Notes: generated by a model not told the origin, from the sequence alone. A DNA stretch of 64,000 nt from Eledone cirrhosa (GCA_964016885.1 OZ024743.1:81840001-81904000); one strand, 5' to 3'; positions 4,603-58,500 are shown, numbered from the stretch's first letter. Numbers and translations are program-made.

Positions 4603-7600
4603 TTTCTTTTATTTGCCACCAGGGCATCAAAAGTGGGACAAGTACAAGGGGGGAGTTTACACAAAAAGGCGTCCTCAATAAGGAGGAGGCAATAACAATA
4701 TATAAAAATAATATGTAACAAAAAATAAAATTTATAACAAAATCCTCAATAGAGAGGAGGCGCCTTGGGGGGTCGCACACACCCCCGAAAAAAGTGTGCA
4801 ACCCTTTTCCTCAGGAGCACAGAGAGAGGGTGCTCCCTCGTTCCTTCCTCTTTTCCACCTACAGGCTTATGTAAAGAGAAGGCCCATTCACACGGGCCAT
4901 TCTCACCACTTTCACCCACCTTTCATAAAAACGACTGGGGTGGAGCACCTCTCTCTCCATCCTGATCCTTCTTCCGAAATGATATCGGAAGAAACGGACC
5001 AGTTGTTGGCCAGAGAGAAAGGTGCCTGACCTCAGTCCTTTCAGACGCGTCCACCATACAACCTCTTTCGCCATGGCTATTACGCACAGAAACACCGCCT
5101 CTGCTTCATCTTTGAAGGGGGGAGGCGGCTTGATCATTACAATAGACTCGGTGGTCAACCGGATCGGTCCCACCCTTGACAGCAGTTGTTCGACATAGCC
5201 CCACAGATCGGCTACGCCCGAGCAGTGTACCAATGCGTGTGCAACGGTTTCCTCGTCGCACACGCATCTGGGACAGATCTTTTTGGCGGGGTCCCTACCC
5301 GGGCGCCCGTGTCTGTAGAGCTTTTCTCGAACGGGTAGAGCCCCTCGGTAGCACTGCCAGGCCAGGGACTTCTGGAAGTTGTCCATAGGTCCCGGGCTGA
5401 ATGTCCTACCGAACAGGCTGGCCAGTTCGTCCTCCTCCATGTCTAGGGCTTCTCCGAGGGCGTCGTCGCACCTGCTGCGTACCAGCCCTCTATAGAATGT
5501 TTCGGTGGAGTCTCCACTGATAACCGGATCCGCCTGCCAGAGGGCGGTGAGCGCCTGGGCACACTCAGTGTGCCAGGCGCCCAGTTTTCTCGGTCTTTGC
5601 TTGACCCAGGATTGCAGCTCGGTGAGTGAGACGAGTCTGGGAAAGGTTCGTCTCACAAACGAGGCCCACACCGGTTGACCGGTGAGGAATACGTAGAGGT
5701 GCCGTAGCCTTAATGCGTGTTTACGCATCATTAGCCACGGCATCCCCAGCCCTCCTTTCGAAGGGTGTTGACAGCAGATGGATCTCCTCACCATAGGAGC
5801 CCGCCTCTTCCAAAGGAATTGGAAGAGCGCGCGCTCCATCTTGGCGAGGGTTTCCCTTGGGCAGGGCACTACGGTCAGGCGGTAGTAGATGACGGACGCT
5901 ATATAAGTGTTCGCCACCTCCGCCCGACCTTTCAGGGATAGTTTGCAACTGGCCCACTTCTGGGTCAGTGCAAACACCCTGTTCGTAACCTCCGCCCAGT
6001 TCTTCTCCACCTGGAGGTCCGGTCCGAACCAGACCCCGAGCAACTTCACCGGGCCCTCCGTCCAGCGTCCGACGACGCCATCGGAGGGCATCGGTCTGCC
6101 CCTCCACGTGCCGATTTGCAAACCGATCGACTTGTCCCGGTTCAGCTTAGCCCCTGTGAACCTTTCGTACTCCTCCAGTAAGGTGCCGACCGCCTCGATT
6201 TCGGAGGCCGTCGACACCATTACTGTCACGTCATCGGCGTAGGCCGACACCGCTTTCCGCAATCCCAGTTCCAAAGGGATGCCCTGCAACAACTCCAACT
6301 TCCGCAGTAGTGGCTCGAGAGTCAACACCTACAGACGGGAGGAGAGAGGGCACCCTTGTCGGATGGACCCCGCGATTTTGAACGGCTCCGAGAGGTAGCC
6401 GTTCACCTTGACCCTAGAGCAGATGCGGCTGCTGTGCATAGCAGTGATCCAGCCCCTGAAAACGGGTCCGAAGCCTGCCGCCGCTAGCACCGCATCCAGG
6501 TAACCACGGTCGACCCTATCGAACGCCTTAGATTGATCCAAGTTGATCAGAGCCACACCAAAGCCGGGTTAGTTCCCAACCCTCTCTATGATGTATCGCA
6601 TTAGATGGAGGTTGTCATGGATGGATCTGGACGGGATAGCACATGTCTGCGCATCTCCCACCAGGTTGCCCACGACAAGCGCCAACCTCTTTGCTAGCAC
6701 CTTGGCCAAAATCTGTAACTCTGTATTTAGCAGAGTTATGGGCCTGAAGTTACTTATTTCGTCACCCTTGTTCTCGTCCTTCCTCACTAGCGTGACTACG
6801 CCCTTGGTCACTGCACAGGGAATTCTCCCGTTCTGTTGCCAGTTGCAGTAGACCGCCTCGAGGAGATCGGGGAACAAGTCCGGCATAGCTAGATACAGTT
6901 CGTATGGAAGACCATCAGGACCCGGGGATTTGCGTTTGCCGCATTGGCTCAGCATGTCCTCTATCTCAGCGGCTGAAATCGGCTCCTCGCAGGACTTCGC
7001 CTCCCTGTCCGAGAGACGCGGCAGGCCGTCGAGGTATGGACCGTAGTCCACATCCCCAACCGGCTCCCCGCCCCTTCCGAACAATCGGGCAAAGTGCTTT
7101 TGAAAGGCCTCACACATCTGCTTAGGTTCAAGGATCGCCCGTCCATCCTGGTCTCGCAAAGACCGGATGGTGGATTTAGTTCCACTCTTGGCTTCTGTCA
7201 CGCGGGCCCAGGTAACAGCTTTGGTCCCCTCGTTCCCTAGAGCACGTATTTTACTTCGGACAACGCAGCCTTCGTGCTTCGCGTCGAAAAACTGGCTCAA
7301 AGCCGTTCTCGACGCTAACACTCTGGCCACGTCGCCGCTTCTAATTGCCTCTTCTACTCTATCTATCAGCTTCCTTTCCTTCCTATTCCTATCCGCAGCT
7401 AGAACCTTACTAAATTCTATCGAGACTAATCTAATCTCTCTCTTTAGAGATACCCACCACCTGCTGTTGACGATCGCTCCAGTCAACCGTTCCTTAACTA
7501 ACGTACTAATCCAGTCCCTGTAAGCTTTACTAGCCGGTAAGGACAAGTTCAGCTTCCAGTAACCGGGGCCCTGTCTATGCGTTCTATCAAGGTTGACCAT

Positions 7601-8745
7601 GCAGGTCACCAACTTGTGGTCTGAATAGCCAACCATGAGCATTACTGGACAACTTAAAAGTCCCTGTCCTTATTTCTAACTAAAAACCTATCTAGGTACG
7701 ACCTAGATGATCCGCTGCGATTTGACCAAGACCAGGTTGGCACCGTCGGAAAATCTAGTCGAAATCTATCTGCCAGGTCAAATCGGCCGAGTAACCCCTT
7801 GAGGCTGTTGCACCCCTCTCTATCGGGACATGCCCCTGCATAGTCCCAACGTGCATCCAGGATACCATTCCAGTCCCCCACTAAAAGCAGGGAACGGGAC
7901 GTCCCTAGAAAAGACTCCAGACGCTGGAAAAAGTCGGGCCGCTCTGACCCAAAAGGGGCATATGCGGCTACCAGCCTAAAGGCTTCACCTTCACCACTGC
8001 CAAGGTCCAGCACCACCAGTCGACCCCCTGGGTCCAAGTGAACTATCTGTGTGGCAAGACCCAGATGTTTTTGCAGCAGAACGACAACCCCACCCCCACC
8101 TCCGGGCTGACAGAGAGATGTGTGCATCTCAAAGTCGTCAAAGGTGGGGGCTAGCTGTCGCATGCTGTTGATCCGGGCCTCGCAGATAACCATCACATTT
8201 ATAGATCGCGACCTGAGGTCATTTAGAAGCATTGCTTGCTTCCAAGATGAGCCCAGGCCACGCGCATTTAGACACCCTACTCTTAGCACAGCCATGTTGG
8301 TGGTAAAGAGAAAAGGCACTTACATCTCTGCGTCCCGGGAAGCGGGCCGCTCAATTTCCATGCTGGTTGGGGATGGGTTATTGGGTGGGGTGGTGGTTTG
8401 TGGAAGTGAAGGGGCATCGGTGTGTTGTGGGGTTGGGGTGTTTGTGGTTGAGTGGGTGTCTGGGTGGGGGGTGGGGAATTTTTTTAGGAGGACGCGGTTG
8501 ATTGGCTTGGCGGGGGGGGGGGGGGGGCATGTCCTCCGCGAAATTTATTTTCAACGTTTTATATAAGTTCATTGGGACTTTAATCATTTGTAAATGAGGT
8601 AGTCCCACAGCAGTTATAGAGTTAGGCCCTTCAGTTTGGACCGAAGGATTTGACGAAATTGTGTTCATTAGTTCTTTGTTGTTTGTGTTCATGTATGTAT
8701 ATTGTAAAGTCTTTTTTTGCATAGCAGTTAGTGTTGTGTGACGGG
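4603..8745 (-). mobile_element. Tx1/L1-clade LINE, copy 1 (ORF1 C-terminus plus frameshifted ORF2)
   Basis: APE endonuclease (LNARGL, LVGDWN, SYLDR, SDHKLV), RT (NFRPITLLNTE, LDQSKAFDRVD, RQGCPLS, AYADD), C-terminal CPRC..ETVAHALVHC; AATAAA near 4607-4612 on minus. Confidence 0.93.
4859..8295 (-). pseudogene. ORF2 (endonuclease-reverse transcriptase) of Tx1 copy 1, split by about three frameshifts
   Basis: Consecutive ORFs 7654-8319, 6569-7642, 6329-6556 and 4859-6328 form one colinear protein. Confidence 0.9.
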
Positions 8746-9384
8746 GAGGGGTGGTTTGTATATAGTTAGTGTTCTCTTGGGGAGGGTTATGCAGTAAGCA
8801 ACTGAAGTATATTACCAATTCATAGACGTAGAAACAATACAGTTTTATACCTGAAGCTACAGCGAGATGTATCTATCTAATATTTCAGTGTTTCTGCGTA
8901 TATTTCACTAGTCCTTAGATGTCTGATAGGTTTATAAAGCTTTTCGTTACATATTTCCTCTTGGATTGGTGGGTAGTTTCTGAGGAAGATCTCCACGAAA
9001 ATAAAACCTCCAGTCTAGCTGTTCATACTTTTTCATTATATATGTATACGTGAATAAGTGATATTCACATCTCTAAATATCAATATATCTATCATCACAT
9101 ACATCTCACTGCTTCTGTTAAAACACCTGTACACTTCGTACATAAACGCCCTCGCTTCTGCTGAACTCCACTAGACGGCGCTGAACATCAGTCTTCTATT
9201 CATAGCTGAGACTTTCAAAATGTTTATTTATCAAACATACCATATATCTTTAGAAATACGAAATTCACATACTACTACTACTACTACTACTACTACTGCT
9301 ACTACTGTTTTGCTGCTATGTATGTGTGTATACATATACATATATATATATAAATATAAATTCAGCGAGAGTCGCATTTCGGCG

Positions 9385-9442
<58 letters not shown>

Positions 9443-9447
<5 letters not shown>

Positions 9448-12212
9448 TTGCCACAGGGGCGTACAAAAATGGGACATTACAAGACGTGACGGTGGAGGTT
9501 TTACATAAAAATAACTTTAACATTATTATTACATATAGTTTAAATAACAATAAACTATATATAATAAAATAACAATTTAAATCCCCAATAGGGGGAAACG
9601 TTACTGCAGGGTTGTTTTACACCACGTGGATAGAACAACCCTCAACACCAGGAACACGTTTTGTAGGTGTTCCTGTCTTCCCTCTGTTTATCTTCCTCAA
9701 CCTACAGGTTTATATACAGAGAAGGCCCATTCACTCTGGCCATTTTTTCCACATTCACCCACCTTTCAGCGAATTTACTGGGATGTAGCACCCCTCTCTC
9801 CACTCTCACCTTCCTTCTGAAGTGATACTTAAAGAAGGGGATAAATTGTTGTCCGGAGAGAAAGGTGTTTGCTCTCACTCCTTTTAACCTCGTCCACCAT
9901 ATTACCTCTTTCGCCATAGCCACCAGACAGAGGAAAACTGCCTCTCCTTCGTTCTTAAATGAAGGCGGCGGGGTGATCCTCACGATGGACTCGGCTGACA
10001 AATGGATGCGTCCCACACATGACAGCAGCTGTTCGACATAATTCCACAGGTCGGTCACTCCTGGGCACTGAACATGCAGACGGTTTCGATGTCCTGCTCG
10101 CATCTTGGAACAGGTCCTTTTGGCAGGATCTCTGCCAGGGCGTCCGTGCCTGTAGATTTTGTCTCGAACTGGTAGAGCTCCTCGGTAGCACTGCCAGTCC
10201 AGAGACCTCTGGAAGTTATCCATAGGCCCTGGACGGAAAGTCCTCCCGAACAGACTGGTCATTTCGTCCTCCTCGATGCCTAGAGTTTCCCCGAGAACGT
10301 CGTCGCACTTATCCTCCACTAATCCCCTATAGAATGTAGAAGTGGAGTCTCCGCTGATTGCCGTTTCCGCTTGGTAGAGGGCTGTGAGCGCCTGTAGGCA
10401 TTCGAGGTGCCAGACACCCATTTTCGGTCTTTGCTTGACCCAGGACTGCAGCTCTGTTAGTGAGGCGAGTTGTGGAAGAGCTTGTCTCACAAACGACAGC
10501 CACACCGGTTCGCCGGTCAGGAATACCTGGAGATGGCGTAGCCTCAGCACATGTTTGCGCATCATCAACCACGGAATGCCCAGCCCTCCGTTAGAAGGGT
10601 GTTGACAACAGATGGATCTCCTCACCAATGGAGCCTGTTTCTTCCAGAGGAACTTGAAGAGTAGGCGTTCCATTTTGGTAAAGTATTCGCAGGGGCAAGG
10701 CTCGACTGTCAAGCGGTAGTAGATGACGGACGCTATGTAAGTGTTCGCCACCTCCGCTTGACCTTTCAAGGAGAGTTTGCACTCATCCCACTTCTGGGTG
10801 AGTGCAAACACCTTATCCGTCACCCCGGAAGTCTCGACCGAACCAGACCCCGAGCAATTTCACCGGTCCTTCCATCAAGCGTCCAACGACACTATCGGAA
10901 GGCATGGGTTTGCCTCTCCATGTGCCGAGTTGCAAACCGACAGGCTTGTTTGGGTTTAGTCTTGCTCCTGTCAAAGTTTCGTATTCCTGTAATAGGTTGC
11001 CGATTACCCTGATTTCCGAGGTTTTCCACACCATTACCGTCATGTCGTCGGCATAGGCCGACGCTGCTTTCCGCAGTCCTGGTTCGATCGGGATGCCCTG
11101 CAACAGCTCCAACTTCCGCAGTAACGGCTCGAGAGTCAGTACATACAGAATGGAGGAGAGAGGCCATCCCTGACGGATGGAAGGCATGATTTGGAATGGC
11201 TCTGATAGGTAGCCATTCACCTTGACTGCCGAGTAGATGCTGGTGTGCATGGCAGCGATCCAGCCTCTGAAGACGGGACCGAAGCCGGCCGCCTTGAGAA
11301 CTGCTTCCAAGTATTGATGGTCGACCCTATCAAATGCCTTAGACTGATCTAAATTGATCAGAGCCCCAGCGAAGCCAGGTTTACACCCTACCCTCTCTAT
11401 GATGTATCGCATGCGGTGGAGGTTGTCGTGTATGGACCTGGTCGGGATTGCACACGTTTGGGCTTCCCCTACCAGGTTCTCGACGACAAGTGCCAGCCTT
11501 GCTGCTAACAACTTGGCCAAAATCTTTAACTCTGTGTTGAGCAGAGTTATGGGCTTAAAATTGCTTATCTTCTCCCCCTTTTTCTCATCTTTCCTGATCA
11601 GCGTTACTACGCCTCTGCCTACAGAACTGGGAATCCTCCCGTTCTGCTGCCAGTTGCAGTAGACCGCTTCGAGGACGCCAGAGAACAAGTCTGACAAACC
11701 TATGTAAAATTCATAGGGTAGACAATCTAAACCGGGTGATTTGCGTTTCCCGCAGCGGCGTAGGGCATCTTCTATTTCACCCGCTGTGATCGGCCTTTCG
11801 CAGCTCTCCGCATCCGTGCTCGAGTGTCGCGGTACGCCGTCGAGGTAGGAGCTTAAGTCCATCACCTCGCTCGATGTACCGCTTTGTCTGAACAGTTGTG
11901 TAAAATGCTGCTGGAAGGCCGTGCACATCTGCTTGGATTCAAGTATAATGCGTCCATCTTTGTCTTGCAAAGACCGAATTGTGCTTTTGTGCCACTTTTC
12001 GCTTCTGCCACTCGGGCCCAGCTAACAGCTTTGGCTCCCTCGTTTCTTAGAGCACGTGTTCTACTTCTGACAATACAACCTTCGTGTTTCACGTTGAAGA
12101 ACTGGTCTAGTGCCGTTCTCGCCGCTAGCACGTCAGCTGTACTGCCATTCCTAAGTGCCTCTTCTATTTTAGCTACCAGTTCCTTTTCATTTTTTTTTTT
12201 TCTAAAGCTACT
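9443..12212 (-). mobile_element. Tx1/L1-clade LINE, copy 2, 5'-truncated
   Basis: ORFs 10813-11970 (RT, AYADD) and 9702-10823 are homologous to copy 1; 3' UTR ends in AATAAA next to (TA)n. Confidence 0.93.
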
Positions 12213-12286
12213 TCCTGGTAGAGATATAGATATATAGATAGATAGATCGATAAATATATAGATATATAGATATACACACACATACA

Positions 12287-12357
<71 letters not shown>

Positions 12358-12581
12358 AAAAACCGGGAGGTTATATGAAATGTTGGTAGAGCACTCAGTC
12401 CAAAGGACGAGCCCGGTATAGAGTTAGTTCCACAACAAATTAACAAATTATACTTTAGAACACATGTTTCACCGAAAGGATTCTTCAACTCGGAACTGAA
12501 CCCAAAACATTTGTTAGTGAAATCCTTAACTCCACCCATGCCTATATCTATAATTTGGGGTTATTATATTCTTATGTATTG

Positions 12582-16764: not shown

Positions 16765-16765
16765 A

Positions 16766-35404: not shown

Positions 35405-38400
35405 ATTTATTAGCCACAAGTTCCGACATGTAGGGGACAGTACAAAGACAGGGACAGTGGGGGTTTACAATAAGGTCGAGTAAACGTACACAATGGCAAA
35501 ACTAATTTAACAATGAAGATATGAAAAATATAAAATAAATGATGCATAAATATAACAAAATAAATTCCCCGATAGGGGGTGGACGACCCTGGGGTGACTC
35601 GGGTATCCACCAATCCTGAACCACCCTATGCTTCTAGGGCACCCAGGGAGAGCACCCCTCTCAAGTTAGCTAGCCTATAGGCGCATGGTCAGAGTAGGCC
35701 CATTCACACGGGCCATTCTCGCCACATTCATCCACCTTTTAACAAATGTACTGGGGGTGGGGGTGGGGGCAGCATTTCTCTCTCCACCCTCACCTTCCTT
35801 TCCAGGTGAAACTTGAAGAAGTTGATGAGGGATTGGCCGAAGAGAAAAGTGTCTGTCTTCAGTCCTTTTAATCTGGTCCACCATATAACCTCTTTCGCAA
35901 CTGCCACCAGACAGAGGGAAATTTCCTGCTCTTCCTGACCTAAGGAAGGCGGCGGGTCGATCTTCTCTATGGACTCGGCCGATAGCCGAATTCGTTCCAC
36001 ACGCGACAGTGGCTGTTCGACATAACTCCACAAGTCAGTAATGCATGGACATTGGACAAGTGCGTGCAGAACGGTTTCGTCGTTCTGTGCGCATCTTGGG
36101 CAGGTCCGTCTGACAGCACTTCCGTGCCTGTAGAGTTCATCCCGAACCGGCAGTGCCCTCGGTAGCACTGCCAATTTCTGGAAATTGTCCATCGTCCTTG
36201 GCTCGAAAGTCCTCCGGTACAGACTGGTCAGTTCGACTTCGTCGAGGCCCAGCTTCTCCGAGTGCGTCATCGCACTTGCCCACCACTAATCCTCTATAGA
36301 ACTCGAGAGTGGAAGTTCCACTGATCGCATTGCCCGCTTGGTAGAGGGCAGTGAGTGCCTGGCAACATTCCAGGTGCCAGTCACCCAGTCTCGGTCTCTT
36401 CTTGACCCAGGTCTGCAGCTCAGTCAAAGAAACGAGCTGCGGAAAGGCTCGTCTGATAAACGGCGACCACACCTGTTCACCGTTTAGGCAGAATATCTGG
36501 AAATGTCGCAGCCTTAACGCATGTCTGCGCATCATTAGCGTAGAGGGTGCTGGCAGCAGATGGACCGCCTCACCAACAGAACTTGTCCCCTCCACAAGAA
36601 TTTGAAGAGGAGCCGTTCCAACTTGACGAGGCACGGACGGGGGCAAGACACGACGGTCAGGCGGTAGTAGATGACGGACGCGATGTACGCATTCGCCTCC
36701 TCCGCGCGACCTTTCAGTGATAGCTTCCTCCCAGTCCGTTTTTGGGTGGCACTGGCTACTCTGCTCGTTACCTCGTCCCAATTCTTTTCCACCTGGAGGT
36801 CTGGTCTGAACCAAACCCCGAGCAACTTTACCGGTCCGTCCGTCCAGCGCCCCACGACGCTGTTGGGCGGCATAGGCTTGCCTCTCCATGTTCCGACTGC
36901 AAGCCCACCGACTTTTCAATAAGGTGCCGACTACCTCGATTTCTGAGGTGTCCGACACCATTACGGTGATGTCGTCCGCATAAGCCGACACCGCCTTTCC
37001 ACGTCCCGGTTCGAGCGGGATGCCCTGCAACAGCTCCAGCTTCCGCAGTAAAGGCTCGAGAGTCAATACGTACATAAGGGAAGAGAGAGGGCACTCTTGA
37101 CGGACCGATCGGGAGAGCCAAAATGGTTCCGAGAGGTGGCCATTAACCTTGACCACCGAGCGTGTACGGCTGTGCATTGCAGCGATCCAGCTTCTGAAGA
37201 CAGGGCCGAAGCCAGCTGCTTTGAGGACAAACTCCAGATACCGATGGTCGACCCTATCGAATGCTTTCAATTGATCTGAATTGATCAGTGCCCCACCGAA
37301 GCCAGGTTTACACCCTACCCTCTCTATGATGTATCGCATGAGGTGGAGATTGTCGTGTATGGACCTGGTTGGGATTGCGCAAGTTTGCGCCTCCTCAACC
37401 AAATCCTCGACGACAAGCGCCAATCTCTTTGCTAACACCTTGGCCAAAATCTTAAACTCTGTGTTGAGCAGAGTTATGGGCCTGAAGTTGTCTAATGTAT
37501 CCCTCTTGTTCTCGTCTTTCCTTATCAGCGTCACCACTCCCCTGCTCACAGAACTGGGAATACTCCCATTCTGCTGCCAGTTGCAGTAGAGTGCTTCGAG
37601 GAGATCGGAGAACAAGTCTAGCATATTTACGTAAAGCTCGTAGGGCAGGCCATCCAAACCGGGCTTCCTGAATTTCGGCTGAAGTAATCGGCCTTTCGCA
37701 GCGCTCAGCGTCGACCGTTGAGATGCGCGGCAAGCCGTCAAGGTAGGGACTGAAATCCGCTACTCTCTCTGACTCGCCACTCTCCCTGAACAACCGAGCA
37801 AAGTGCTGACGAAAGGCTTCACACATCCGCTTGGAATCGCTTATCTCGTGTCCATCTCGGTCCGCCAAAGACCGAATTGTGGTTTTATTACCACGCTGCG
37901 CCTCCGCCACGCGGGCCCATCGAACAGCTTTGGTTCCCTCATTTCTCAGCGCACGCGCCTTAGCTCTGACAATGTAACCTGAAGAAATGGTCTAATGCCA
38001 TTCTAGCCGCTAGCACGTTAGTTACAATGCCACTACAAATAGCCTCGTTTAACTTATCTACCAGCTCTCCCTCCTTTCTATTTTTCTCTAACGCTAGTTC
38101 TTTGCTGAACTCTATCGAAGTTACTCTAATCTCTCTTTTGTGAGCCCCCCACCATCTGTTGTTGATGATCCCCCCTGTCAACTTTTGCTTAACTAAATTG
38201 TTGACTCGGTCCCTGTAAGCCTTATGTGCCAGAAATGACATGTTCAGCTTCCAGTAACCCGGTCCTAACCTACGCGTTTTATCTAGGTCGACCATACAGA
38301 TCACAAATTTGTTATCTGAATAAGCGACCGTTTTAAAAATTGGGCAGCCTACACTATTTCTATCTATTTTCCTAATGAAGATCTTGTCTATATACGATCT

Positions 38401-40403
38401 AGATGACCCCATTCGGTTGGTCCATGTCCATACTGGCACATTGGGGAAATCTAGTCGATACCTGTCAGACAGTTGGAACTGGATGAGTAGGTGCTTGAGG
38501 CTTTTGCACCCCCCGCTCCTATCAGCCACTCCCATACAATCCCAGCGTGCGTCTAAGATGCCATTCCAGTCCCCCGCTAACAGTAAAGGGCGAGACGTAC
38601 CCAGAAAGGTCTCCAGGCGCCTAAAGAAGTCCGGTCGTCCGGCCCTGTAGGGGCGTAGACGGCCAACAGTCTAAAGGCAACACCTTCGCTACATCTCACA
38701 TCCAAGACCACGAACTTACCGTCCGGGTCCCGGAAGATCGACCTTACCTCGAGATCCAGTCCTTTCCTGATCAGCACTGTCACCCCATCCCCTATTCCCG
38801 ACCTGCTAACAAATGCGAAGATCTGATAGTCGTCGAAAATGGGGGCTAGTTCACGCGTGTCGGAAATTCTGGTCTCGCTGACGGCTATCACATCCATTTC
38901 CAGCGACCTGAGGTTGTTGAGCAGGCGACCCTGCTTCCAGGGTGACCCAGGGCCGCGAACATTTAAACTTCCTACTCTTAATATGGCCATGTTTGCAAGC
39001 TAAAAGAGAGAGGGAAGGTTACTTACCTCCCGGGGTCTTGTGAAGGTCGGGTGGTTCGACCTCCATAGTTGGTGGGGTTTCTTTTGGGAACCCCTTTAAA
39101 AGTCGATGTGGGTTTCACATTCGGGGTTCCTACGTCTTGAGGAAAGCTTTCCCGAATTTCTTTGAAGGAATCGAGTGACATTCTGACCAGAAGCAAATCT
39201 TCTGGCACGCAAAATGTGCTCATTTCAAAAATCTTCCCCTCTGTTTGAATGTCCTCGCTTCGTGCTAAGAGGGCCATCAGTTTATCGTTGGCCCTTCTGG
39301 CAAGCACGAAGTTTTTAACATTTTGTTGGTGTGGTGTCTGCAATTTCAGGTATTTGTGTGTTTATTTGTACTTGTGTTTGTTTAGGTTGTTTGCGTTTCG
39401 GGGATTGTGTCGATGTTGCTGTTGGTGCTGATGTTATTGGGGAAGTGTTTGCGTTAGTGGTGTCTGTATTTTTTGTTGTGTATGTTTTTGTTTTGTTGGG
39501 GCATTTTGTTTTTGTGAGTTTTCTCTGTTTTTTTGCACTTTTGGGTTTTCCCTCATCTTCGCTGCTGGAAGACAAAGGGTCTGTGGCTGTGAGTGTCTCT
39601 GTGTCTGTGTGTGCGTTTATTGTTTCATCTATTGGGGCGGTAGGGGAGTGGGAGAGCTTTCCTCGTTTTCCCCTTGGATTGGTTTCGGTGTTGGTGGTGG
39701 TCCGGCTGTTTTTGATGTTGGTGTCCGTGTCTTTGTTGGTGTTGTTTTTGGTGGTGGTGGTGCAGCTTTCCGTGCTTGACACTAGCGTTGGCAACAAAGG
39801 AGGTTTGCGACACCCTGCATTTTTGCGCTGCGGGCAGAAGGCTTGCAGATGCGTTGCTTCCCCGCAGACGAAGCAGTGTGGCCTTCTTCCCTCAGTGATT
39901 ATTTGGATTGTTGTCTCGTCCTGCAGGCGGGCAAAATCCGGAATGTTATTCATGTCCTCCGGTTTCATTTGGAGAAGAATCTCCAAATCCATTCCGGACC
40001 AGTCTTCTCTCTCTGTCCTTTTGATATCCAGCAATGTAGTGTCTGTCCCCTCCTCGATTACGCATCCCAGCAGCCACCATATGTTCACTCCTGGTGGGAT
40101 GCTGGGAATGCGAACCTTTACTGTCCTTTTACCCATGTAGGTTGGGTGCATGATAATGCGTTCCGTTTTTCAGGGGGTCACCGAGTGCTTAATAGCAAGG
40201 GCCTCGGTTTTGAACAGTACCGAGATGGTACCGAACTGTTTGGCTCTTGCTTTATACTCTATGTCACTGCCGATGCACTCCAAAGCAGCCTCGACCTCTG
40301 CTTGGCTGGCAAGTTCCACTTTTCGTGTCTGCACCGAAATGCATCGAAAGTACACCGTCCTCCTTTGCATGGCCGCTATTGCCCCGTCCAGGGTGTCATT
40401 TTC
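35405..40403 (-). mobile_element. Tx1/L1-clade LINE, copy 3, nearly full length
   Basis: ORF1 with zinc knuckle CFVCGEATHLQAFC (39315-40151); ORF2 from MAILRVGSLNVRG (38990) to stop at 35675, many frameshifts; (AAT)/(GAT) repeats on both flanks. Confidence 0.93.
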
Positions 40404-50149: not shown

Positions 50150-50157
50150 TATGTTTA

Positions 50158-50422
<265 letters not shown>

Positions 50423-50703: not shown

Positions 50704-50818
50704 CAGTATTAACAATTGTTTCATTGATCAGGCGAGTCTAAAGGCCGCTAATCACTCGAAGTTGCGTCACTCGACCTTAAATACAGTGTGTGTCTCTGAT
50801 CAAATCATCGGAATACTG
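50704..50818 (-). ncRNA. Type I hammerhead (U4C variant) with ~70-nt stem II domain; left arm of palindrome 50704-50930
   Basis: Minus: CAGTATT CCGATGA tTTGATCA..TGATCAAt GAAAC AATT GTT AATACTG; 7-bp stem I; palindromic ACAATTGT. Confidence 0.75.
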
Positions 50819-51214
50819 TATTCCGATGATTTGATCAAAGACACACACTGTATTTAAGGTCGAGTTACTCAACTTCGAGTGATTAGCGGCCTTTAGACTC
50901 GCCTGATCAATCAAATAATTATTATTACCGTATGTATATATGTAAAAGATCGAAAATGCAACTGGATTCTTTTTAAGAATATTTATTTGTTTCCTTTACC
51001 GGTTTCACAGTTCTTATGCTTTTCAAAAGTAGAATTGAGAAGGAGGGTTTGTGGTTTTTCTCGCATATATATATATATATATATAAAGGATCGATCGACT
51101 TTCGTCAAATCGGACCGAGGAAACAACGTTGGTCTTTCCAATTTCTACTACTATCTACCGGTTGCAACTCCAGGTAGAGGGAGCAACGTGATTTGTTTTA
51201 TATATATTTTTTAC

Positions 51215-51410
51215 CTGACTAGAACAGTTTCATTGGTACAGCAATTGGACCAGCAATTATCCCAGTGCAGTACTGGTACTTTAGTTTATCGACCCCGTAA
51301 GGATGAAAGGTAAAGTTAATCTCGGCGGGATTTTAACTCAGAGAGTAAAGGGCCGTAACTCTATGCTGTAAAACATGGCGTCCGACTCTCAACCGAAACT
51401 GCCAATACAC
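51215..51410 (-). mobile_element. tRNA-derived SINE
   Basis: Reverse-complement homologue of 12582-12770. Confidence 0.8.
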
Positions 51411-51720
51411 TATAATGGATCTGAAATGGTTCAGTATTACAATTTACTATTGTAATCGTCAGCTGTTTCACGGTTGTTTCATCATTCTGTCTCTATATTC
51501 CTCAACTCACCAGAAGTCAATGATTTGTACTCATTGTTATGGGAAACATTTCTACAGAGATCGATATAGAGCGACATCCTGGTGATCCCCAGTGGGCAGC
51601 CATGGTGTAGAGATGGCTCTGTCCTACTTCCTACCACTTTCACTCTTCTCATCTTGTTAGCTCAGATTTTGACATGCATATATGTACATAAATATATATA
51701 CATACATATATAAATGTACA

Positions 51721-51754
<34 letters not shown>

Positions 51755-51758
<4 letters not shown>

Positions 51759-52364
51759 TAATATCATTTCCCCACCAGCACATAAATATAGTAAAATTTT
51801 TAATAGAAATACCATTAAAATGTCTTACTCTACGACTCCTAACCTTGCACATAACATCACAGCTTCAAATTTAGCTAAATTACCTAGCCGTAGGAACACG
51901 TGCATCCCTGTAGCTTGTACTAACTGTAATTGTAAGAATCGGGTTGACTGCCCCTATCCGGGAAATGCCTCTCTAGTAACATTGTCTACAAATGTAAGGT
52001 TGAAACACCCACGTCCCGTAGGGCCTACATAGGGTTAACCGCCAATAGATTCAAGCAGCGTCTTTACATGCATACCCATTCTTTTCTTAACCCTTTAAGA
52101 AGGAATATGACGTCACTTTCAGCTCATATCGGGAGTCTAAAACTTAACCACACCCAATATAAGTTACACTGGGAGATCCTAGCTAGGGCTAGATCGTATA
52201 ACGGAAATAAAAGACCATGTGACCTCTGCGCCGCTGAGGCCCTGGAAATACTCTACGCCAAAGACCACATCTTAAACAAAAAATCTGAGGCAATTTCGGC
52301 TTGTAAACATAAATTGCACAAAACTTTCCTGTATTACAGCCCCACATTATACCCTAACGGATAG
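51755..52364 (+). pseudogene. Penelope linker plus GIY-YIG endonuclease, one frameshift near 51962
   Basis: ORFs 51682-52032 and 52068-52364 joined through the shifted frame. Confidence 0.85.
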
Positions 52365-53365
52365 TACGAACTATACGCGGATATTTTACATCTTGATGTG
52401 GTAGCTAAGTATATGTTATGTTAATACCATTACTTATTCGTATATGTATGTATATATTACCTGTATGTTTTGTGAAGGTACGTATACTTTCTCGTACGTA
52501 TATTTGATTGTATATGTTATTGGCGCATATATTATACATACTGGTACATGTGCATTTGGTTATGTGCATACGTGAGTTTTGCGTCTGTGTGAGTGTGTGG
52601 GTACGTCCGCGAACATATGTGTATTTACATGTGGGTGTGTGTGTGTGCGCGCGTTATATACGTATGTATGTGTGTATATTTATATACGTTTATTTAATTA
52701 TGTATACACGCGCACACACACACACACATGTATGTATATATATATATATGTTTTTATATATATATTTTTATGTGTATTTGGTGTATACGTTTGTATGTGT
52801 GCGGGTTCAGGCGTTGCGTGGGTTCTGTATGTGTGAGCGTGTTTTTTTTGGGTTTTTTTGTGTACGTGCTTGTATTTGCATACCCATGGCGAGTGTTTTC
52901 GCGTATGCTTGTGTTTGCACGTATATGGATGCGTGTATGTATATATTTAATTTCAATTACCTCGGTATGTTATTTACTTTATTCTTAACTCTGAAGCCGA
53001 GAATCATACGGTTTCCTAAATAGAATGTTATTCTACGACTTCGGTTATACCATTTACGTGGTTTTGTCTTTGCGTGTAATTGTTCTCGTTGCTCCACATA
53101 ATGACGTATTATGTTTGTTTTTTTCCGTTCATTGCCAGAGAACGTCTCCATGAACCACCTAATAGATTATTAGTCTACGACTTCATTTATACCATAAACG
53201 TGGTTTTGTCTTTGCGTGTAATTGTTTTCACCGCACCAAATAATGACGTATTAACTTCGTTTTTTTTCCGTTCTTTTCCAGCGAACGTTTCCACGAACAA
53301 ATGTATCGTCTTCCTGCCTTCCTTCGGTTGCAACGTTTTTTTTTAAATATTTACTTCTGCGTTGA

Positions 53366-53439
53366 CAGATTGACTTTTTTAGTTTCAGAAGATCCCGTTA
53401 AGGGTGAAAGCAGCGATTCTTTGCTTAAACTTTAATCTG
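53366..53439 (+). ncRNA. Type I hammerhead with CAGAAGA (U4A) core at the Penelope 3' end
   Basis: AGTTT CAGAAGA tCCC gttaa GGGt GAAA GCAG cgattct TTGC TT AAACT; distal stem I CAGATTGA/TTAATCTG. Confidence 0.68.
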
Positions 53440-53447
53440 TTATTTTA

Positions 53448-53613
<166 letters not shown>

Positions 53614-53754
53614 GCACACATATATATATATGTACGTATGGGTTTACCGAACATTTATTATAATGTTCGGCTTGTTTGTAAACAAACATCCCGAATTATG
53701 CCGTACAGTGCTCAGCAACCATCGTCGCCCTTTTGTTCAACACTGTCACAGGAA

Positions 53755-53795
53755 CGATGTACTAGTTTCAAGCGTATTAGCTATCGTCAGCATCG
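53755..53795 (-). ncRNA. Minimal type I hammerhead (canonical core)
   Basis: Minus: CGATG CTGACGA tAGC taatac GCTt GAAAC TA GTA CATCG. Confidence 0.82.
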
Positions 53796-54022
53796 TATAC
53801 CTTTCTGTCAGATGATTGAATGTTTGAAAGTATATACTTTCCTTTTGCATATTAACGCCTGAGCAGCCTAATTTTCATATCGAGTGAGTTAGTCGGCCGG
53901 GCAACCGAAAACGATAAATGGAAAAGAATGAAGCAACATTTCATTTCTCACTCTCAGTATGGCTCATACCTAAATATAAGTATGTATACGTACATACATA
54001 TATGGGTACAGACGTACAGTAG

Positions 54023-54060
<38 letters not shown>

Positions 54061-54202
54061 CATGCACACATATATATATGTACGTATGGGTTTACCGAAC
54101 ATTTATTATAATGTTTGGTTTGTTTGTAAACAAACAGCCCGAATTACGCCGTACAGTGCTCGGCAACCATCGTCGCCCTTTTGTTCAACACTGACACAGG
54201 AA

Positions 54203-54242
54203 CGATGTACTAGTTTCAAACTTATTAGCTACCGTCAGCATC
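54203..54242 (-). ncRNA. Minimal type I hammerhead, second copy (A9G change)
   Basis: Minus: GATG CTGACGG tAGC taataa GTTt GAAAC TA GTA CATC. Confidence 0.68.
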
Positions 54243-54635
54243 TTTCTATCTCATAATATTAATATTGTTTCTCTCTCTCTTTCTTCCATATCTTTCCCCA
54301 GCGTCATTTAAATAAACGGTTGTTTCTTCAATTATTTACACATTCATTTGCATATTCATACATAACTTTGAATATTCCCTAATATGTTTCCGACCGATAA
54401 GGTTGAATCTTCATGGGTACGTCTTTATTTATAAAACAAACTTTGTATTTTATCTGATGAAAGCGAACCAATGTTGTCTTGGTTACCCTTCAAATATATA
54501 TAATAAAATATGGTTTTATAAATATAGTTTCCATTTATTTAATATCATGGATTATTTACTCCACAAACTGTTGAGTGCTCTAAATCAGTTATAAACATTT
54601 GTTTGTCGGAATTCCAACAAATTAAATACAGCTTC

Positions 54636-54683
<48 letters not shown>

Positions 54684-54902
54684 TTTCAACGGGGATCGGC
54701 TTTTCGTTGCTGTTACTGTTCCCCCCTTTTTTTTGTTCTCTTTTACAATGTTCTATTTATTTAATGACAACTTTATATGTTTTCCCTCTTAGTTAAAGAT
54801 CTCCCGTATTCATCCAAGGCAGACAACTGGCGCCGACATTTTCCATATATATGGGTCGCCGTCCTTAGCTATTGTAATGGACCTGAAATTGGAGGAGCAA
54901 AA

Positions 54903-54947
54903 TGATGGCATCCTAATACTACTACTACTACTACTACTGATGGCACC

Positions 54948-54978
<31 letters not shown>

Positions 54979-55104
54979 TGATGGCACCCTAATACTACTG
55001 CTGCTACTACTACTACTACTGATGGCACCCTAATACTACTGCTGCTGCTACTACTACTACTACTACTGATGCCACCCTAATACTACTGCTGCTACTACTG
55101 TTGC
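54903..55104. repeat. Five-copy minisatellite tgatggcaccctaa(tac/tgc)n
   Basis: Constant 14-mer separated by lengthening trinucleotide runs. Confidence 0.85.
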
Positions 55105-55568
<464 letters not shown>

Positions 55569-55569
55569 T

Positions 55570-58500
55570 TTCTTTATTAACCACAAGGGTTTACATAAAG
55601 TAGACATTAAGGACAGTACAGGACAATACAGGACGGTTCAAATGGGCATTTCTGCGTGTAAAAAACAAAAACAGAGGATGTAACAAAAAAAATAACAATG
55701 AAAAATTCCCCAATAGGGGGAAACCTCCGAGGGTTACTCGTGGCGAAAACCACACAAAAGACCACGGCCACCCTGACCACCAGGGCAAGCGCCCTCTCTC
55801 AATTTTTCCATCTCTCAAACTACAGACATATATTCAGAGTGGTCCCGTTCACTCGGACCATTCTCGCTACATTCACCCACCTTTCAACAAACTTGCTGGA
55901 AGGCAGTACTTGCCTCTCCACCCTGATTTTCCTCTTCAAGTGAAACTTGAAAAAGTTAATTAGAGATTCGCCGAAGAGGAAAGTGTCTGTTTTTAACCCT
56001 TTCAACCTTGTCCACCACACAATCTCTTTCGCCATGGCCACCAGGCAGATGAAAACCGCCTGCCCTTCCTCCTCGGAGGAAGACGACGAGACCATCTGCA
56101 CAATGGACTCAGTCGATAACCGGATCAGTCCTACACGCGACAGCAACTGTTCGACATAGCTCCACAAGTCATCAATGCTCGGGCACTGAACGAGTGCGTT
56201 CATTACGTACAAGAGGGACAGAGGGGACAACCCTGGCGGACCGAGCACATGATGCTGAACGGCTGCAACAAGTGACAATTCATCCTCACAACTGAGCAGA
56301 TGTCGCTGTACATCGCAGCGATTCAACCCCTGAAAACGGGCCCGAAACCGGCTGCTTCGAGGACAGCCGCCAGGTACCGATGGTCGACCCTATCGAATGC
56401 TTTGGATTGATCCAAGTTGATCAGGGCCAGGTTCATTAACCACCCTCTCTATGATGTATCGCATGAAGTGGAGGTTGTCGTGTATTGGTCTGTCCGGAAT
56501 GGCGCATATCTACGCCTCTCCCACCAGACCCTTGACAACAAGCGCCCACCTCGTTGCTAAGACCTTGGCTCAAATCATGAACTCTGCGTTTAGCAGGGTT
56601 ATGGGCCTGAAATTATCGATAACATCCCCCTTGTTCGGGTCTTTTCTCAGCAGCGCCACCGATCCCCGGCTCACAAAACTGGGAATGCTCCCGTTCTGCT
56701 GCCAGTTGCAGTAGACGTCTGCCAAGAAGTCACCGAACAAGTCTGGCATAAATGCATAAAGCTCGTAGGGCAGAGCATCCAAACCTGGCGATTTACCCCT
56801 CGTGCAGTTAGCCATCGCTTCCCGTATTTCACCGGCTGTTATTGGCTTTTCGTAACACTGTGCTGCGGTCGTCGAGAGCCGAGGCAGTCCGTCGAGGTAT
56901 GCACTGAAGTCCATGCCCCGATCCAGCCCGCCGCTGCTCCCGAACAGTTCAGCAAAGTGCTGCTGAAAAGCTTCACACATCTGCTCGGATTCGAGCAACA
57001 CGCACCCGTTTGGGTCATACAAAGACCGAATTGTGACTTTCTTTCCACGTCACGCCTCTGCCACCCGTGCCCATTGGACGGCTTTTGTCCCCTCGTGTTT
57101 CAGAGCACGTGTTCTAGCTCTGACAACGCAGCCTTCGTTGAAGAATTGGTCGAGTGCCAATCTCCCGTCAACGCCCGCTTAACTAATACGCTAATCCGGT
57201 CTCTGTAAGCTTTGCGTGCCGAGAAAGACGCGTTCAGCTTCCAGTAACCGGGCCCTTGTCTATGAAGTCTGTCTATATCGATCTCACAGATCACAAATTT
57301 GTGGTCTGTGTAGTCGACTATTTTAAATTGTGGACAACTTATACTAGCCTTATCTAGTTCTCTGGAGAATACCCAATCGAGATAAGATCTGGATGACCCG
57401 ATGCGGTTTGTCCATGTCCACATTGGCACATTCAGGTGATCCAGTCGATACCTGTTAGACAGTTCAAAACGTCTGAGCAGGTTGGTGAGGCTCTTGCACC
57501 CTCCTCCCCTATCTACTAGCCCCACACAATCCCAGCGTGCATCCAATATACCGTTCCAGTCGCCCACTAACACTAAAGAGCGGGACGTTCCAAGAAAGGT
57601 CTCTAGACGTCTGAAGAAATCTGGCCGTCCTGCCCCAGTTGGGGCGTAGATGGCTACTAGCCTGAACGCATTGCCTTCGATGCCGGTCACGTCCAGCACC
57701 ACCGACTTACCTTCTGGGTCTAGGAAGATGGCCCGTATGGCGAGATCCAAGCCTCTCCGAAAAAGGACGGCAACCCCTCCCCTCCCGATCCTGGACGGCT
57801 TGCAGATGCGTATACATCGTAGCCACCGAAGATCGGTGCGAAGGCTTGTGCTTCGGAGATTCTGGTCTCACTGATGGCCACCACATCTATGTTTAGTGAC
57901 CTGAGGTCGTTGAGCAGGTGACCCTGCTTCCAAGATGATCCCAGGCACGTGCATTTATACTGCCTATTCTGAGTACGGCCATGTTGGATGAGAAACGGGG
58001 CAAGTGAGAAAGGGTCACTTACCTTGATCGTGTGGTGAAGGGACAGTAGAACCTTCCCTTTGGCTGGTCATGGGTGTTTCCAAGAGGATGTCAGTGTATA
58101 ACCTCTTGGTAACCAACCCTCTGAAGTCTCCAACTGCGTTGGGGAATTTTTGCTTTAAAGGTTTGTACTGTTCTATTGAGATTTCAATGATGCTTATGTT
58201 TGTCGGGAGAGTTCTTGGTGTTGGTTGGGTGTAGAAGTTTTTTTCTGTGATGTCTGTGTGCTGCTTCATATATTGTATGAGTTCTTTTTTTGCCATGTTT
58301 ATGGCTGTGTACTTTTTGGGGGGAGGGGTGATTTTGTTGCTGTTTGGTGTGTGTGTTTTGTTTGCGTTGTTGGTGTTTTTGGTGATGCTGGTGGTGGTGT
58401 GGTTGTTGTTGGCGGTGGTGCTTGTAGTTGTAATGGTGATGGTGGTGGTGTTGCTTCAAGTTTCCTTGCTGCCTTTACCCCTCTTTGTGTGCCTTCGCTT

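What the first reader, a model, noticed from the sequence alone, without database searches (positions are those of the whole stretch)
4859..58022. Tx1 LINEs may hold the whole of ORF2 inside an intron: donor at the ORF1 stop, acceptor at the ORF2 stop
Seen: all three copies retaining the ORF1/ORF2 junction have a perfect GTAAGT overlapping the ORF1 stop (minus strand 8318-8323, 39021-39026, 58017-58022), then a pyrimidine tract and (c/a)aacATGG, although the ORF1 C-termini barely align. All four ORF2s end in TAG within acceptor-like context (ccttctctttacataagcctgTAG|g 4859; cctgTAG|g 9702; cctaTAG|g 35675; tctgTAG|t 55820). In copies 1 and 3, splicing (AT|G, AG|G) would remove the stop and extend ORF1 in frame (..GAPSLCAPE.. 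vs ..GVLSLGALE..); copy 4 is one base out of phase. Inference: alternative splicing sets the ORF1:ORF2 ratio, analogous to copia gag splicing, or the donor is a U1 site preventing premature polyadenylation. I know of no report of this for Tx1 elements.
Basis: partly seen in the sequence, partly recalled or inferred. Interest (0 to 1): 0.72.

Follow-up and report, generated by a model that had tools for sequence, protein, structure and literature searches.

The report
Splice-donor motif at LINE ORF1 stop
A group of young jumping genes (LINE retrotransposons) keeps a perfect splice-start signal exactly where its first gene ends, but the matching splice-end signal is not kept and no genomic copy examined has the second gene spliced out, so the signal likely works as a docking site for the U1 splicing particle and as one strand of a long RNA helix that closes the second gene into a loop, and is probably not the edge of a true intron.

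Summary
All three junctions carry GTAAGT at the stated places. In eight families or subfamilies of this genome the ORF1 end reads G|GTA(A/G)GT. Conservation stops sharply at -2 and +7, which is the footprint of a U1 snRNA site.

The intron reading is weak:
- The abundant F5 lineage ends ORF2 in TAA, not TAG.
- The "pyrimidine tract" is made of codons for a conserved GPSL/GPTL peptide.
- Better-looking acceptors lie inside ORF2.
- No copy has the donor joined to anything other than the spacer plus ORF2. This is 0 of 1517 F1 copies for any acceptor, and 0 of 1078 F5a copies for the predicted one.
- No RNA run exists for this organism.

Both "splice sites" are the two feet of a long-range RNA helix of -38 to -54 kcal/mol. 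It pairs the ORF1 stop, the spacer and the ORF2 AUG with the ORF2 stop and the start of the 3'UTR. Each family's own partner fits best: the true pairing is the single best of 720 permutations.

Best reading (0.4): a U1 docking motif, masked by an ORF2-closing helix, that acts without ORF2-wide splicing.

The scan had already noted this idea at least eight times on other DNA of this genome and once in another genome. The retrocopy census and the F5 TAA counter-example are new here.

The parts
8318..8323 (-). Copy 1 (family F1): GTAAGT at the ORF1 end. The window copy has T at -1 (8324); the family has G.
8296..8317 (-). Copy 1: pyrimidine-rich inter-ORF spacer up to the ORF2 ATG (8293-8295). 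In F1, ORF2 is in the same frame as ORF1, 24 nt after the TAA.
4859..8295 (-). Copy 1: ORF2, broken by frameshifts, with stop TAG at 4859-4861. In L033, an intact family member, ORF2 has Exo_endo_phos, RVT_1 and a below-cut-off zf-RVT match.
8282..8326 (-). Copy 1: 5' strand of the long-range helix (donor motif, spacer, ORF2 AUG and first codons).
   Evidence: -37.3 kcal/mol; 1 of 500 shuffles as low; for the family
4814..4877 (-). Copy 1: 3' strand of the long-range helix (last ORF2 codons, TAG, first ~45 nt of the 3'UTR).
4608..4858 (-). Copy 1: 3'UTR with AATAAA at 4608-4613, followed by a (TA)n tail.
9702..12560 (-). Copy 2: 5'-truncated ORF2 with stop TAG at 9702-9704 and no ORF1/ORF2 junction. 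Its (TA)n tail (about 9400-9450) abuts the truncated 5' end of copy 1.
39021..39026 (-). Copy 3 (F3b-like): GTAAGT in GAG|GTAAGTAA. The TAA at 39023-39025 ends the last ORF1 piece.
38977..39029 (-). Copy 3: 5' strand of the long-range helix, including the ORF2 ATG at 38988-38990.
   Evidence: -34.7 kcal/mol; 1 of 500 shuffles as low
35630..35693 (-). Copy 3: 3' strand of the helix, including the ORF2 stop TAG at 35675-35677.
58015..58022 (-). Copy 4 (F4): GTAAGTGA. The ORF1 stop is the TGA at 58015-58017, register GGT AAG TGA.
57969..58025 (-). Copy 4: 5' strand of the helix. Here GGTAAGTG itself pairs with CGCTTGCC in the 3'UTR. ORF2 ATG at 57980-57982.
   Evidence: -53.2 kcal/mol; 0 of 500 shuffles as low
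55775..55838 (-). Copy 4: 3' strand of the helix, including the ORF2 stop TAG at 55820-55822.

Best explanation
The G|GTA(A/G)GT at the ORF1 stop is a conserved U1-snRNA-complementary (5' splice-site) motif, and it likely works as a U1 snRNP docking site rather than as the donor of an ORF2-sized intron.

Shown:
- The motif is conserved across eight families.
- It forms one foot of a family-specific long-range RNA helix. The other foot spans the ORF2 stop and the first ~45 nt of the 3'UTR.
- No genomic copy examined has this donor spliced.

Inferred:
- U1 would bind the nascent RNA at the end of the ORF1 region, which is rich in poly(A)-signal hexamers. This would favour synthesis of the full-length RNA, as the U1 site of the EVD copia element does.
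- Once the 3'UTR is transcribed, the helix would mask the motif. In F4 and F5 it does so with a U1-like C(A/G)CTTGCC.
- The helix would also enclose the ORF2 AUG and stop, so that the finished RNA is neither spliced nor held back.
For: 1. Footprint. In the motif-anchored comparison of 8 families, the number of different letters per column is 3,2,1|1,1,1,2,1,1,3 for -3..+7. The flanks have 2-4 letters. ORF1 tails of different lineages are only 48-58% identical.
2. In F4 the ORF1 frame reads GGT AAG TGA, so the TAA is not the stop, yet the motif is intact.
3. F6 and F7 have GTAGGT. This keeps a stop (TAG), and the +4 G can still wobble-pair with U1. That pairing rests on my knowledge of the U1 5' end, not on a call.
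4. Donor use was never copied into the genome. The 15 nt upstream of the F1 donor are followed by GTA at 1490 places and by anything else at 27. All 27 are point mutants or small indels still followed by spacer and ORF2. For F5a, 1077 places are unspliced and 1 variant is an inverted duplication.
5. Helix. Duplex energies between own strands are -38.5 to -53.8 kcal/mol. The true assignment is the single best of 720 permutations of 6 families. The ORF2-stop window is the best of 485 downstream partner windows in 5 of 6 families. In F4 and F5, GGTAAGTG pairs with C(G/A)CTTGCC.
6. Poly(A) hexamers lie within 500 nt upstream of the motif in 6 of 8 families. They are rare in ORF2, at 0-2 per 3.4 kb.
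7. Precedent. [quoted passage not shown]
Against: - No RNA data of any kind. U1 binding, RNA 3' ends and the helix are all unobserved.
- The poly(A)-hexamer pattern is weak. F4 and F6 have none near the motif, and ORF1 is simply A-rich.
- In register-1 families, five of the seven motif positions are an Arg codon's last two bases plus a stop codon, so part of the conservation could be coding.
- F4's retention of TAA could be inertia, since it is only about 10% diverged from F5 in ORF2.
- The second GGTAAGT, in the F1 5' head, is not kept in F5a or F4, so a general 'U1-site strategy' is not shown.
- Preference of the LINE's proteins for copying the RNA that encodes them could hide spliced ORF1-only RNAs from the retrocopy census.
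- Telescripting as described protects downstream sequence, whereas most of the hexamers here lie upstream.
Confidence: 0.4

Rival explanations
1. Translational coupling. The long-range helix encloses the ORF1 stop, the spacer, the ORF2 AUG and the ORF2 stop. [quoted passage not shown] The GTAAGT look is then a by-product of stop codon, Arg codon and helix constraints, with no role for U1.
For: - The helix is family-specific, and it places the ORF2 AUG opposite the last ORF2 codon and the stop.
- The ORF2 frame relative to ORF1 is 0 in F1, -1 in F5b and +1 in F5a. This rules out uniform readthrough or frameshifting and requires separate initiation.
- AACATGG/A is a good start context with no other AUG in the spacer.
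- SART1 needs a downstream structure for termination-reinitiation, and L1 ORF2 uses an unconventional reinitiation (PMC5972666, passages seen).
Against: - It does not explain why +5 G and +6 T (non-coding) and the third base of the Arg codon are invariant while the pairing partner differs between lineages.
- It does not explain why the conservation edges match a U1 footprint.
- No 18S rRNA complementarity was tested.
Confidence: 0.25
2. Alternative splicing from the ORF1-stop donor to an AG at or just after the ORF2 stop removes ORF2 and yields an ORF1-only mRNA, as in copia and EVD. The helix would bring the two sites together or set the ratio.
For: - The donor is a perfect match.
- An AG sits immediately before the 3' helix strand in every family, even in F5, where the stop is TAA (A(T/C)TAAAG|GTGG).
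- The copia/EVD precedent (PMC5580714, abstract, section 8).
Against: - 0 of 1517 F1 copies (any acceptor) and 0 of 1078 F5a copies (predicted acceptor) are spliced. By comparison, 116 of 6609 (1.8%) human full-length L1s are spliced retrocopies (PMC5860796, passages).
- The F5 acceptor has A at -3 and 9 of 17 pyrimidines, with 24-27 better sites.
- A better acceptor lies 441-458 nt past the donor in F1, F3b, F6 and F7.
- The AG and the donor would be buried in a stable duplex.
- The C-terminal extension is not conserved.
- A spliced RNA would keep the whole 3'UTR and so compete as a template.
Confidence: 0.12
3. No function. The motif is an inherited accident of a common ancestor, kept by the stop codon and a C-terminal Arg.
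For: The families fall into only three deep lineages. The -2 change A>C in F5b is synonymous for Arg.
Against: - The spacer from +7 on, and the ORF1 tail, have diverged beyond alignment, while -1..+6 are fixed or vary only in ways that keep both a stop and 5' splice-site likeness.
- Arg codons other than NGG are never seen.
Confidence: 0.1

Closest known systems
Ty1/copia EVD (Arabidopsis) and Drosophila copia: a U1 site and splice at the end of GAG
   Same: A conserved U1-type donor sits where the structural-protein gene ends. [quoted passage not shown]
   Different: EVD is an LTR element with a short intron around the protease and a dedicated terminator, and its splicing has been shown experimentally. 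Here the element is a LINE, no spliced product is seen in RNA or DNA, the putative intron would be the whole 3.4-kb ORF2, and the site is embedded in a long-range helix. The copia details are recalled, not read.
Human L1 splice donors and SpIREs
   Same: A LINE keeps functional-looking donor sites although the full-length unspliced RNA is the template. Those authors discuss masking of the donor by structure or proteins (PMC5860796, abstract and passages).
   Different: Human donors lie in the 5'UTR and leave 1.8% spliced retrocopies (116 of 6609). Here the donor is at the ORF1 stop and leaves none in 1517.
Tx1-group target-specific LINEs (Kibi, Koshi, crocodilian Tx1 in microsatellites)
   Same: L1-type ORF2 and insertion into microsatellites. 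Copies here sit head-to-tail in (TATC)n, (TA)n and (ATT)n. Compare PMC4494074, passages seen.
   Different: The targets are other repeat units. Clade membership was not tested by phylogeny. No report of a donor motif or an ORF2-closing helix turned up in my searches.
Termination-reinitiation signals (calicivirus/influenza B TURBS; SART1; L1)
   Same: Short distance between the ORF1 stop and the ORF2 AUG, and structure near the stop (PMC5972666, passages).
   Different: The structure here is closed by a strand 3.4 kb away, and the conserved motif matches U1, not the known 18S helix-26 motif.
Long-distance RNA-RNA pairing between a recoding site and the 3'UTR in tombusviruses and luteoviruses (recalled, not read)
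   Same: A site next to the stop of the first ORF pairs with the 3'UTR kilobases away, which could couple polymerase synthesis to events at the 3' end.
   Different: Those are RNA viruses that use readthrough or frameshifting. Here the ORF2 frame varies (0, +1, -1), so recoding is excluded.

Membership tests
L1/Tx1-type LINE | ORF2 with apurinic-type endonuclease and reverse transcriptase | tested here: met
   L033 ORF2: Exo_endo_phos 7e-07 and RVT_1 5.2e-26, both above their cut-offs. zf-RVT scores 25.1 bits against a 27.5 cut-off, so it is below.
L1/Tx1-type LINE | ORF1 with CCHC knuckle | tested here: inconclusive
   One CX2CX4HX4C is visible. Pfam zf-CCHC scores 17.8 bits, below the 20.8 cut-off.
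L1/Tx1-type LINE | Sequence-specific insertion (here into microsatellites) | tested here: met
   Full copies start right after (TATC)n or (ATT)n and end in AATAAA plus the same repeat. Elements lie head-to-tail.
L1/Tx1-type LINE | RT phylogeny places it inside the Tx1 clade | not tested
   No reference RT set was available.
Spliceosomal intron spanning ORF2 | Consensus 5' splice site | tested here: met
   G|GTAAGT or G|GTAGGT in 8 of 8 families.
Spliceosomal intron spanning ORF2 | Conserved 3' splice site (pyrimidine tract plus YAG) at the ORF2 stop | tested here: not met
   F5a and F5b use TAA. The nearest AG has A at -3 and 9 of 17 pyrimidines. 2-27 better sites exist per family.
Spliceosomal intron spanning ORF2 | Spliced RNA | not testable with these tools
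   No RNA run is on record. Contigs of runs of unknown kind show no such joint.
Spliced retrocopies (SpIRE-like) | Genomic copies with the donor joined to an acceptor | tested here: not met
   0 of 1517 for F1 with any acceptor. 0 of 1078 for F5a with acceptors starting GTB.
Termination-reinitiation element (TURBS-like) | Complementarity to 18S rRNA upstream of the stop | not tested
   The 18S rRNA of this genome was not fetched.
Stop-codon readthrough or frameshift (gag-pol style) | Fixed frame relation between ORF1 and ORF2 | tested here: not met
   The frame relation is 0 in F1, -1 in F5b and +1 in F5a.

The most novel reading that the evidence does not exclude
These LINEs wrap their whole reverse-transcriptase gene in a 3.4-kb RNA loop. 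The loop is closed by one long helix in which the ORF1 stop with its 5' splice site, the ORF2 AUG and the ORF2 stop are all paired. A U1-snRNA look-alike in the 3'UTR competes with U1 for the donor. This would be a kinetic switch. The nascent RNA is U1-bound, and so protected or occasionally spliced. The finished RNA is closed, which sets export, ORF2 translation and template use.
Probability: 0.25. Interest if true: 0.8.

Novelty: new variant of a known kind. Interest (0 to 1): 0.55.

Why it matters
How LINEs make much ORF1 protein and little ORF2 protein, and how intron-less retroelement RNAs survive the host's splicing and polyadenylation surveillance, are open questions outside mammals.

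This group offers a good test case. It has thousands of near-identical copies, many with an intact ORF2 and some with both ORFs intact. It has a perfectly conserved U1 site at the ORF1 stop. It also has a family-specific helix that joins the two ends of ORF2. Reporters and structure probing could use it to ask whether a LINE uses U1 binding without splicing, as the copia element EVD does, and whether long-range RNA pairing controls ORF2.

The retrocopy census also shows that a 'perfect' splice site in a retroelement is no evidence of an intron.

Tried and rejected
- **RNA evidence.** The look-up of sequencing runs listed 6 runs and no RNA holder.
- **Contigs laid on a full F1 copy.** Four runs together gave 15 listed joints, with 89 more not shown. 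Run X4 alone gave all 11 of its joints. None links the donor to the ORF2 stop, and none of X4's joints is GT..AG. One X4 contig crosses the donor unspliced. The kind of these runs is unknown, so this counts neither for nor against.
- **Protein search.** The ORF1 tail found no hit at E<=1e-10, so no gene models could be checked for spliced forms.
- **A coding extension of ORF1 into the 3'UTR after splicing.** Rejected. The extension is 0, 0, 0, 3, 35 or 64-78 codons depending on family. The GAPSLCAPE/GVLSLGALE likeness lies over a 3'UTR hairpin region.
- **Readthrough or frameshift.** Rejected because the frame relation varies.
- **General enrichment of donor-like motifs on the sense strand.** Not found apart from the two specific GGTAAGT sites.
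- **The 68-nt GGTAAGT...TTTTGTAG module in the F1 5' head as a real intron.** 256 copies keep it. The 1 variant reads C, not the A that a spliced copy would show, and its sequence beyond the match was not read.
- **Rfam.** No family matches the 5' head or any part of a full copy.
- **Helix test restricted to the 18 nt next to the AUG.** Not significant on its own: 89 of 720 permutations do as well.
- **Earlier-findings look-up for look-alikes in other genomes.** Nothing.
- **Octopus LINE paper (PMC9115989, passages).** It deals with RTE elements and has no bearing here.
- **Other ORFs in the window.** Pfam gives no family for five other long ORFs or for the ORF1 pieces of copies 3 and 4.
- **Not done.** A check of 18S rRNA complementarity, a formal covariation count with the count of structure pairs (the two strands lie 3.4 kb apart, beyond the alignment tool's 3000-base limit), and a proper splice-site score (no MaxEnt available).


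Full report
**What is in the window**

Four minus-strand copies of related LINEs lie in the window.
- Copy 1 runs from about 4600 to 9400 and is 5'-truncated inside ORF1.
- Copy 2 runs from 9460 to about 12560 and has ORF2 only.
- Copies 3 and 4 keep the ORF1/ORF2 junction.

Each ends in AATAAA followed by a (TA)n or (ATT)n tail. The 5' end of copy 1 abuts the tail of copy 2. All four are broken by frameshifts.

The window is C4:81840001-81904000 of a 3.0-Gb genome.

Copy 1 belongs to a very young family, which I call F1.
- A search with its ORF2 N-terminus gave 33,555 first-look candidates. The 150 places scored are 95-100% identical, and most have an open frame of 1153 codons.
- Eight full copies that I fetched are 98.6-99.6% identical over about 5.9 kb.
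- In L033, ORF1 is 617 aa with one CCHC-like knuckle and long Asn-rich stretches.
- ORF2 follows 24 nt later in the same frame. It has Exo_endo_phos and RVT_1, and a zf-RVT match just below its cut-off.
- The elements start directly after (TATC)n or (ATT)n, which is the habit of target-specific Tx1-group LINEs (PMC4494074, passages). I did not test clade membership by phylogeny.

**The observation**

GTAAGT is at the three stated places. The motif is not enriched in the window as a whole: 30 matches against 40.3 expected.
- In copy 3, the TAA inside the motif ends the last ORF1 piece.
- In copy 4, the frame reads GGT AAG TGA.
- Copy 1 has ATGTAAGT, but all 8 full F1 copies read GAG|GTAAGT. Its T at -1 is therefore a decay mutation.
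- All four ORF2s in the window end in TAG.

**The donor motif is conserved beyond chance**

A pattern anchored in the ORF2 5' part of non-F1 families has 6366 matches. I read the first 30 loci in genome order. Of these, 28 have GGTAAGT, one has TGTAAGT and one has an internal deletion. Longer stretches gave representatives of F3a, F3b, F4, F5a, F5b, F6 and F7.

Aligned on the motif, the eight families show this many different letters per column:

| Position | -3 | -2 | -1 | +1 | +2 | +3 | +4 | +5 | +6 | +7 |
|---|---|---|---|---|---|---|---|---|---|---|
| Different letters | 3 | 2 | 1 | 1 | 1 | 1 | 2 | 1 | 1 | 3 |

- The flanks have 2-4 letters per column.
- The last 240 nt of ORF1 are only 48-58% identical between the three deep lineages {F1, F6, F7}, {F3a, F3b} and {F4, F5a, F5b}. 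The first 600 nt of ORF2 are 66-76% identical between them.
- The only change inside the motif is +4 A>G in F6 and F7 (GTAGGT). This keeps a stop (TAG) and, from what is known of U1, a G.U pair.
- F4 keeps the motif although its stop is the following TGA.

This profile is that of a U1 site. Two caveats apply. In register-1 families the positions -2..+4 are an Arg codon plus a stop. And F4 is only about 10% diverged from F5 in ORF2.

**The acceptor is not supported**
- F5a and F5b made up 18 of the 30 sampled loci. They end ORF2 in CTGTAA followed by A(T/C)TAAAG|GTGG. L099 (F5b) has both ORFs intact. TAG is therefore not general.
- The 'pyrimidine tract' CCTTCTCT encodes the conserved GPSL/GPTL near the C-terminus.
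- On a crude score (pyrimidines at -20..-4, Y at -3, no nearby upstream AG), the AG at or after the stop is good but not best in F1, F6 and F7. It is poor in F5: 9 of 17 pyrimidines, A at -3, and 24-27 better sites.
- A better-looking site lies 441-458 nt past the donor in F1, F3b, F6 and F7.
- After the hypothetical splice, ORF1 would run on for 78 (F1), 35 or 0 (F3b), 0 (F4), 64 (F5a), 66-71 (F5b), 0 (F6) or 3 (F7) codons. No product is conserved.

**Census of spliced retrocopies**

- The 15 nt just upstream of the F1 donor are followed by GTA at 1490 places, GTB at 7, GV at 6 and H at 14.
- I read all 27 exceptions. Each is a point mutant, a one-base insertion or a 4-nt deletion, and each is still followed by the spacer and the ORF2 start.
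- So 0 of 1517 copies have this donor joined to any acceptor.
- For F5a, 1077 places carry the unspliced 22-mer. The single GTB variant is an inverted duplication. Only acceptors beginning GTB, which includes the predicted GTGG, were covered for F5a.
- For scale, 116 of 6609 (1.8%) human full-length L1s are spliced retrocopies (PMC5860796, passages).
- A spliced ORF1-plus-3'UTR RNA would keep the full 3' tail. Its absence therefore argues against frequent germline splicing. The tendency of LINE proteins to copy the RNA that encodes them could hide rare events.

**RNA**

No RNA run is on record. Contigs of runs of unknown kind show no such joint. These results are listed under Tried and rejected only.

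**What the two 'splice sites' are part of**

I tested this.
- I took the segment from donor -3 to ATG +14 and the segment from stop -16 to stop +48. In six families (F1, F3b, F4, F5a, F6, F7) these form duplexes of -38.5 to -53.8 kcal/mol.
- The true assignment of partners is the single best of 720 permutations. The own partner is the best in 5 of 6 rows and in 5 of 6 columns.
- In a scan of 485 windows downstream of the donor, the ORF2-stop window is the best partner in 5 of 6 families. It comes second in F3b.
- Spacer-only segments give the same direction: 2 of 720 permutations, and 0 of 265 derangements, do as well.
- The 18 nt next to the AUG alone are not significant: 89 of 720.
- The three window copies give -37.3, -34.7 and -53.2 kcal/mol. 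Of 500 shuffles, 1, 1 and 0 are as low.

The helix next to the AUG changes sequence between families while staying complementary:

| Family | 5' strand | 3' strand |
|---|---|---|
| F1 | ACCACC | GGTGG |
| F5 | TTTTCCAC | GTGGAAAA |
| F3 | TTAGCT.GCC | GGC.AGCTAA |
| F4 | CCGTTTCTC | GAGAGATGG |
| F7 | TTCCCC | GGGGAA |

- The first ORF2 codons pair with the last ones, so the AUG and the stop face each other.
- In F4 and F5, the motif GGTAAGTG itself pairs with C(G/A)CTTGCC about 30 nt past the stop. That sequence resembles the 5' end of U1.
- In F1 and F7, the bases flanking the stop are paired and TA(A) is looped out.
- This helix accounts for the conserved aacATGG and CTGTAG|G contexts. If it forms, it would bury both putative splice sites.

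**Mechanism**

Shown:
- A motif with a U1 footprint at the ORF1 end.
- A family-specific ORF2-closing helix.
- No donor use recorded in DNA.
- A variable ORF1/ORF2 frame relation: 0, -1 and +1.

Inferred: U1 snRNP docks on the nascent RNA without completing ORF2-wide splicing.
- Poly(A) hexamers lie within 500 nt upstream of the motif in 6 of 8 families and are scarce in ORF2.
- The helix would later mask the site. I put this reading at 0.4.

Rivals:
- Helix-controlled termination-reinitiation with no U1 role: 0.25 (compare SART1 and L1 in PMC5972666, passages).
- True ORF2 splicing: 0.12.
- Inherited accident: 0.1.

**Novelty**

My four literature searches listed no paper on a donor motif at a Tx1 or L1 ORF1 stop, or on an ORF2-closing helix. 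Introns or splice sites in non-LTR elements are known for L1, Tad, TART antisense RNA and Penelope (PMC1636488, passages). I saw no supplements.

The scan itself had noted the same idea at least eight times on other DNA of this genome and once in another genome. None of those notes, as shown to me, reported RNA evidence.

Noticed in passing
L033:411-509; L109 and L110 (G000:C1:211902000-211911999, 212381000-212386000): The first ~100 nt of F1 elements hold a second perfect GGTAAGT, 22 nt from the 5' end, followed 68 nt later by TTTTGTAG. This head is shared at 87-91% identity with the ~0.9-2.2-kb repeat units (mostly ~970 bp) of head-to-tail arrays in (TATC)n that share nothing else with the LINE. 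256 genomic copies keep the module; the 1 variant (C, not the A a splice would give) was not read beyond the match. There is no Rfam match.
   Followed up: partly
window 4740-4850, 9580-9690, 35560-35670, 55700-55810 (minus strand): The 3'UTRs carry a hairpin with compensatory differences (copy 1 GGAGCAC...GTGCTCC; copy 2 CAGGAACAC...GTGTTCCTG). All four copies also have a conserved CCCCCTAT(T/C)GGGGA-like motif. These are likely recognition signals for the element's reverse transcriptase.
   Followed up: no
window 9400-9460; L033:300-410; L117-L121: Elements lie head-to-tail inside (TA)n, (TATC)n or (ATT)n. The 5' end of one copy starts directly after the tail repeat of the next, which indicates microsatellite-targeted insertion.
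   Followed up: partly
L099 (F5b) 3'UTR, about 5680-5900 in element orientation: The F5b 3'UTR has no TAA, TAG or TGA in any of the three frames for more than 70 codons after the ORF2 stop region.
   Followed up: no
L097, L099, L104 (last 240 nt of ORF1): ORF1 tails look mosaic. F5a and F5b are 97% identical in ORF2 but 63% in the ORF1 tail, whereas F4 and F5b are 80% identical in the tail. This suggests exchange of ORF1 modules between lineages.
   Followed up: no
L033 and seven other family representatives: Poly(A) hexamers (AATAAA/ATTAAA) are frequent in ORF1 and nearly absent from ORF2, at 0-2 per 3.4 kb.
   Followed up: partly
L116 (G000:C4:167570563-167573581): In one F5a copy the ORF1 end is followed by the reverse complement of the preceding ORF1 sequence. 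This is an inverted duplication at the junction, not a splice.
   Followed up: partly
L033:623-2473: ORF1 protein of F1 has long Asn-rich and Pro/Gln-rich low-complexity stretches. Its C-terminal part (residues 380-617, the part searched) found no relatives at E<=1e-10 in the large protein collection.
   Followed up: no
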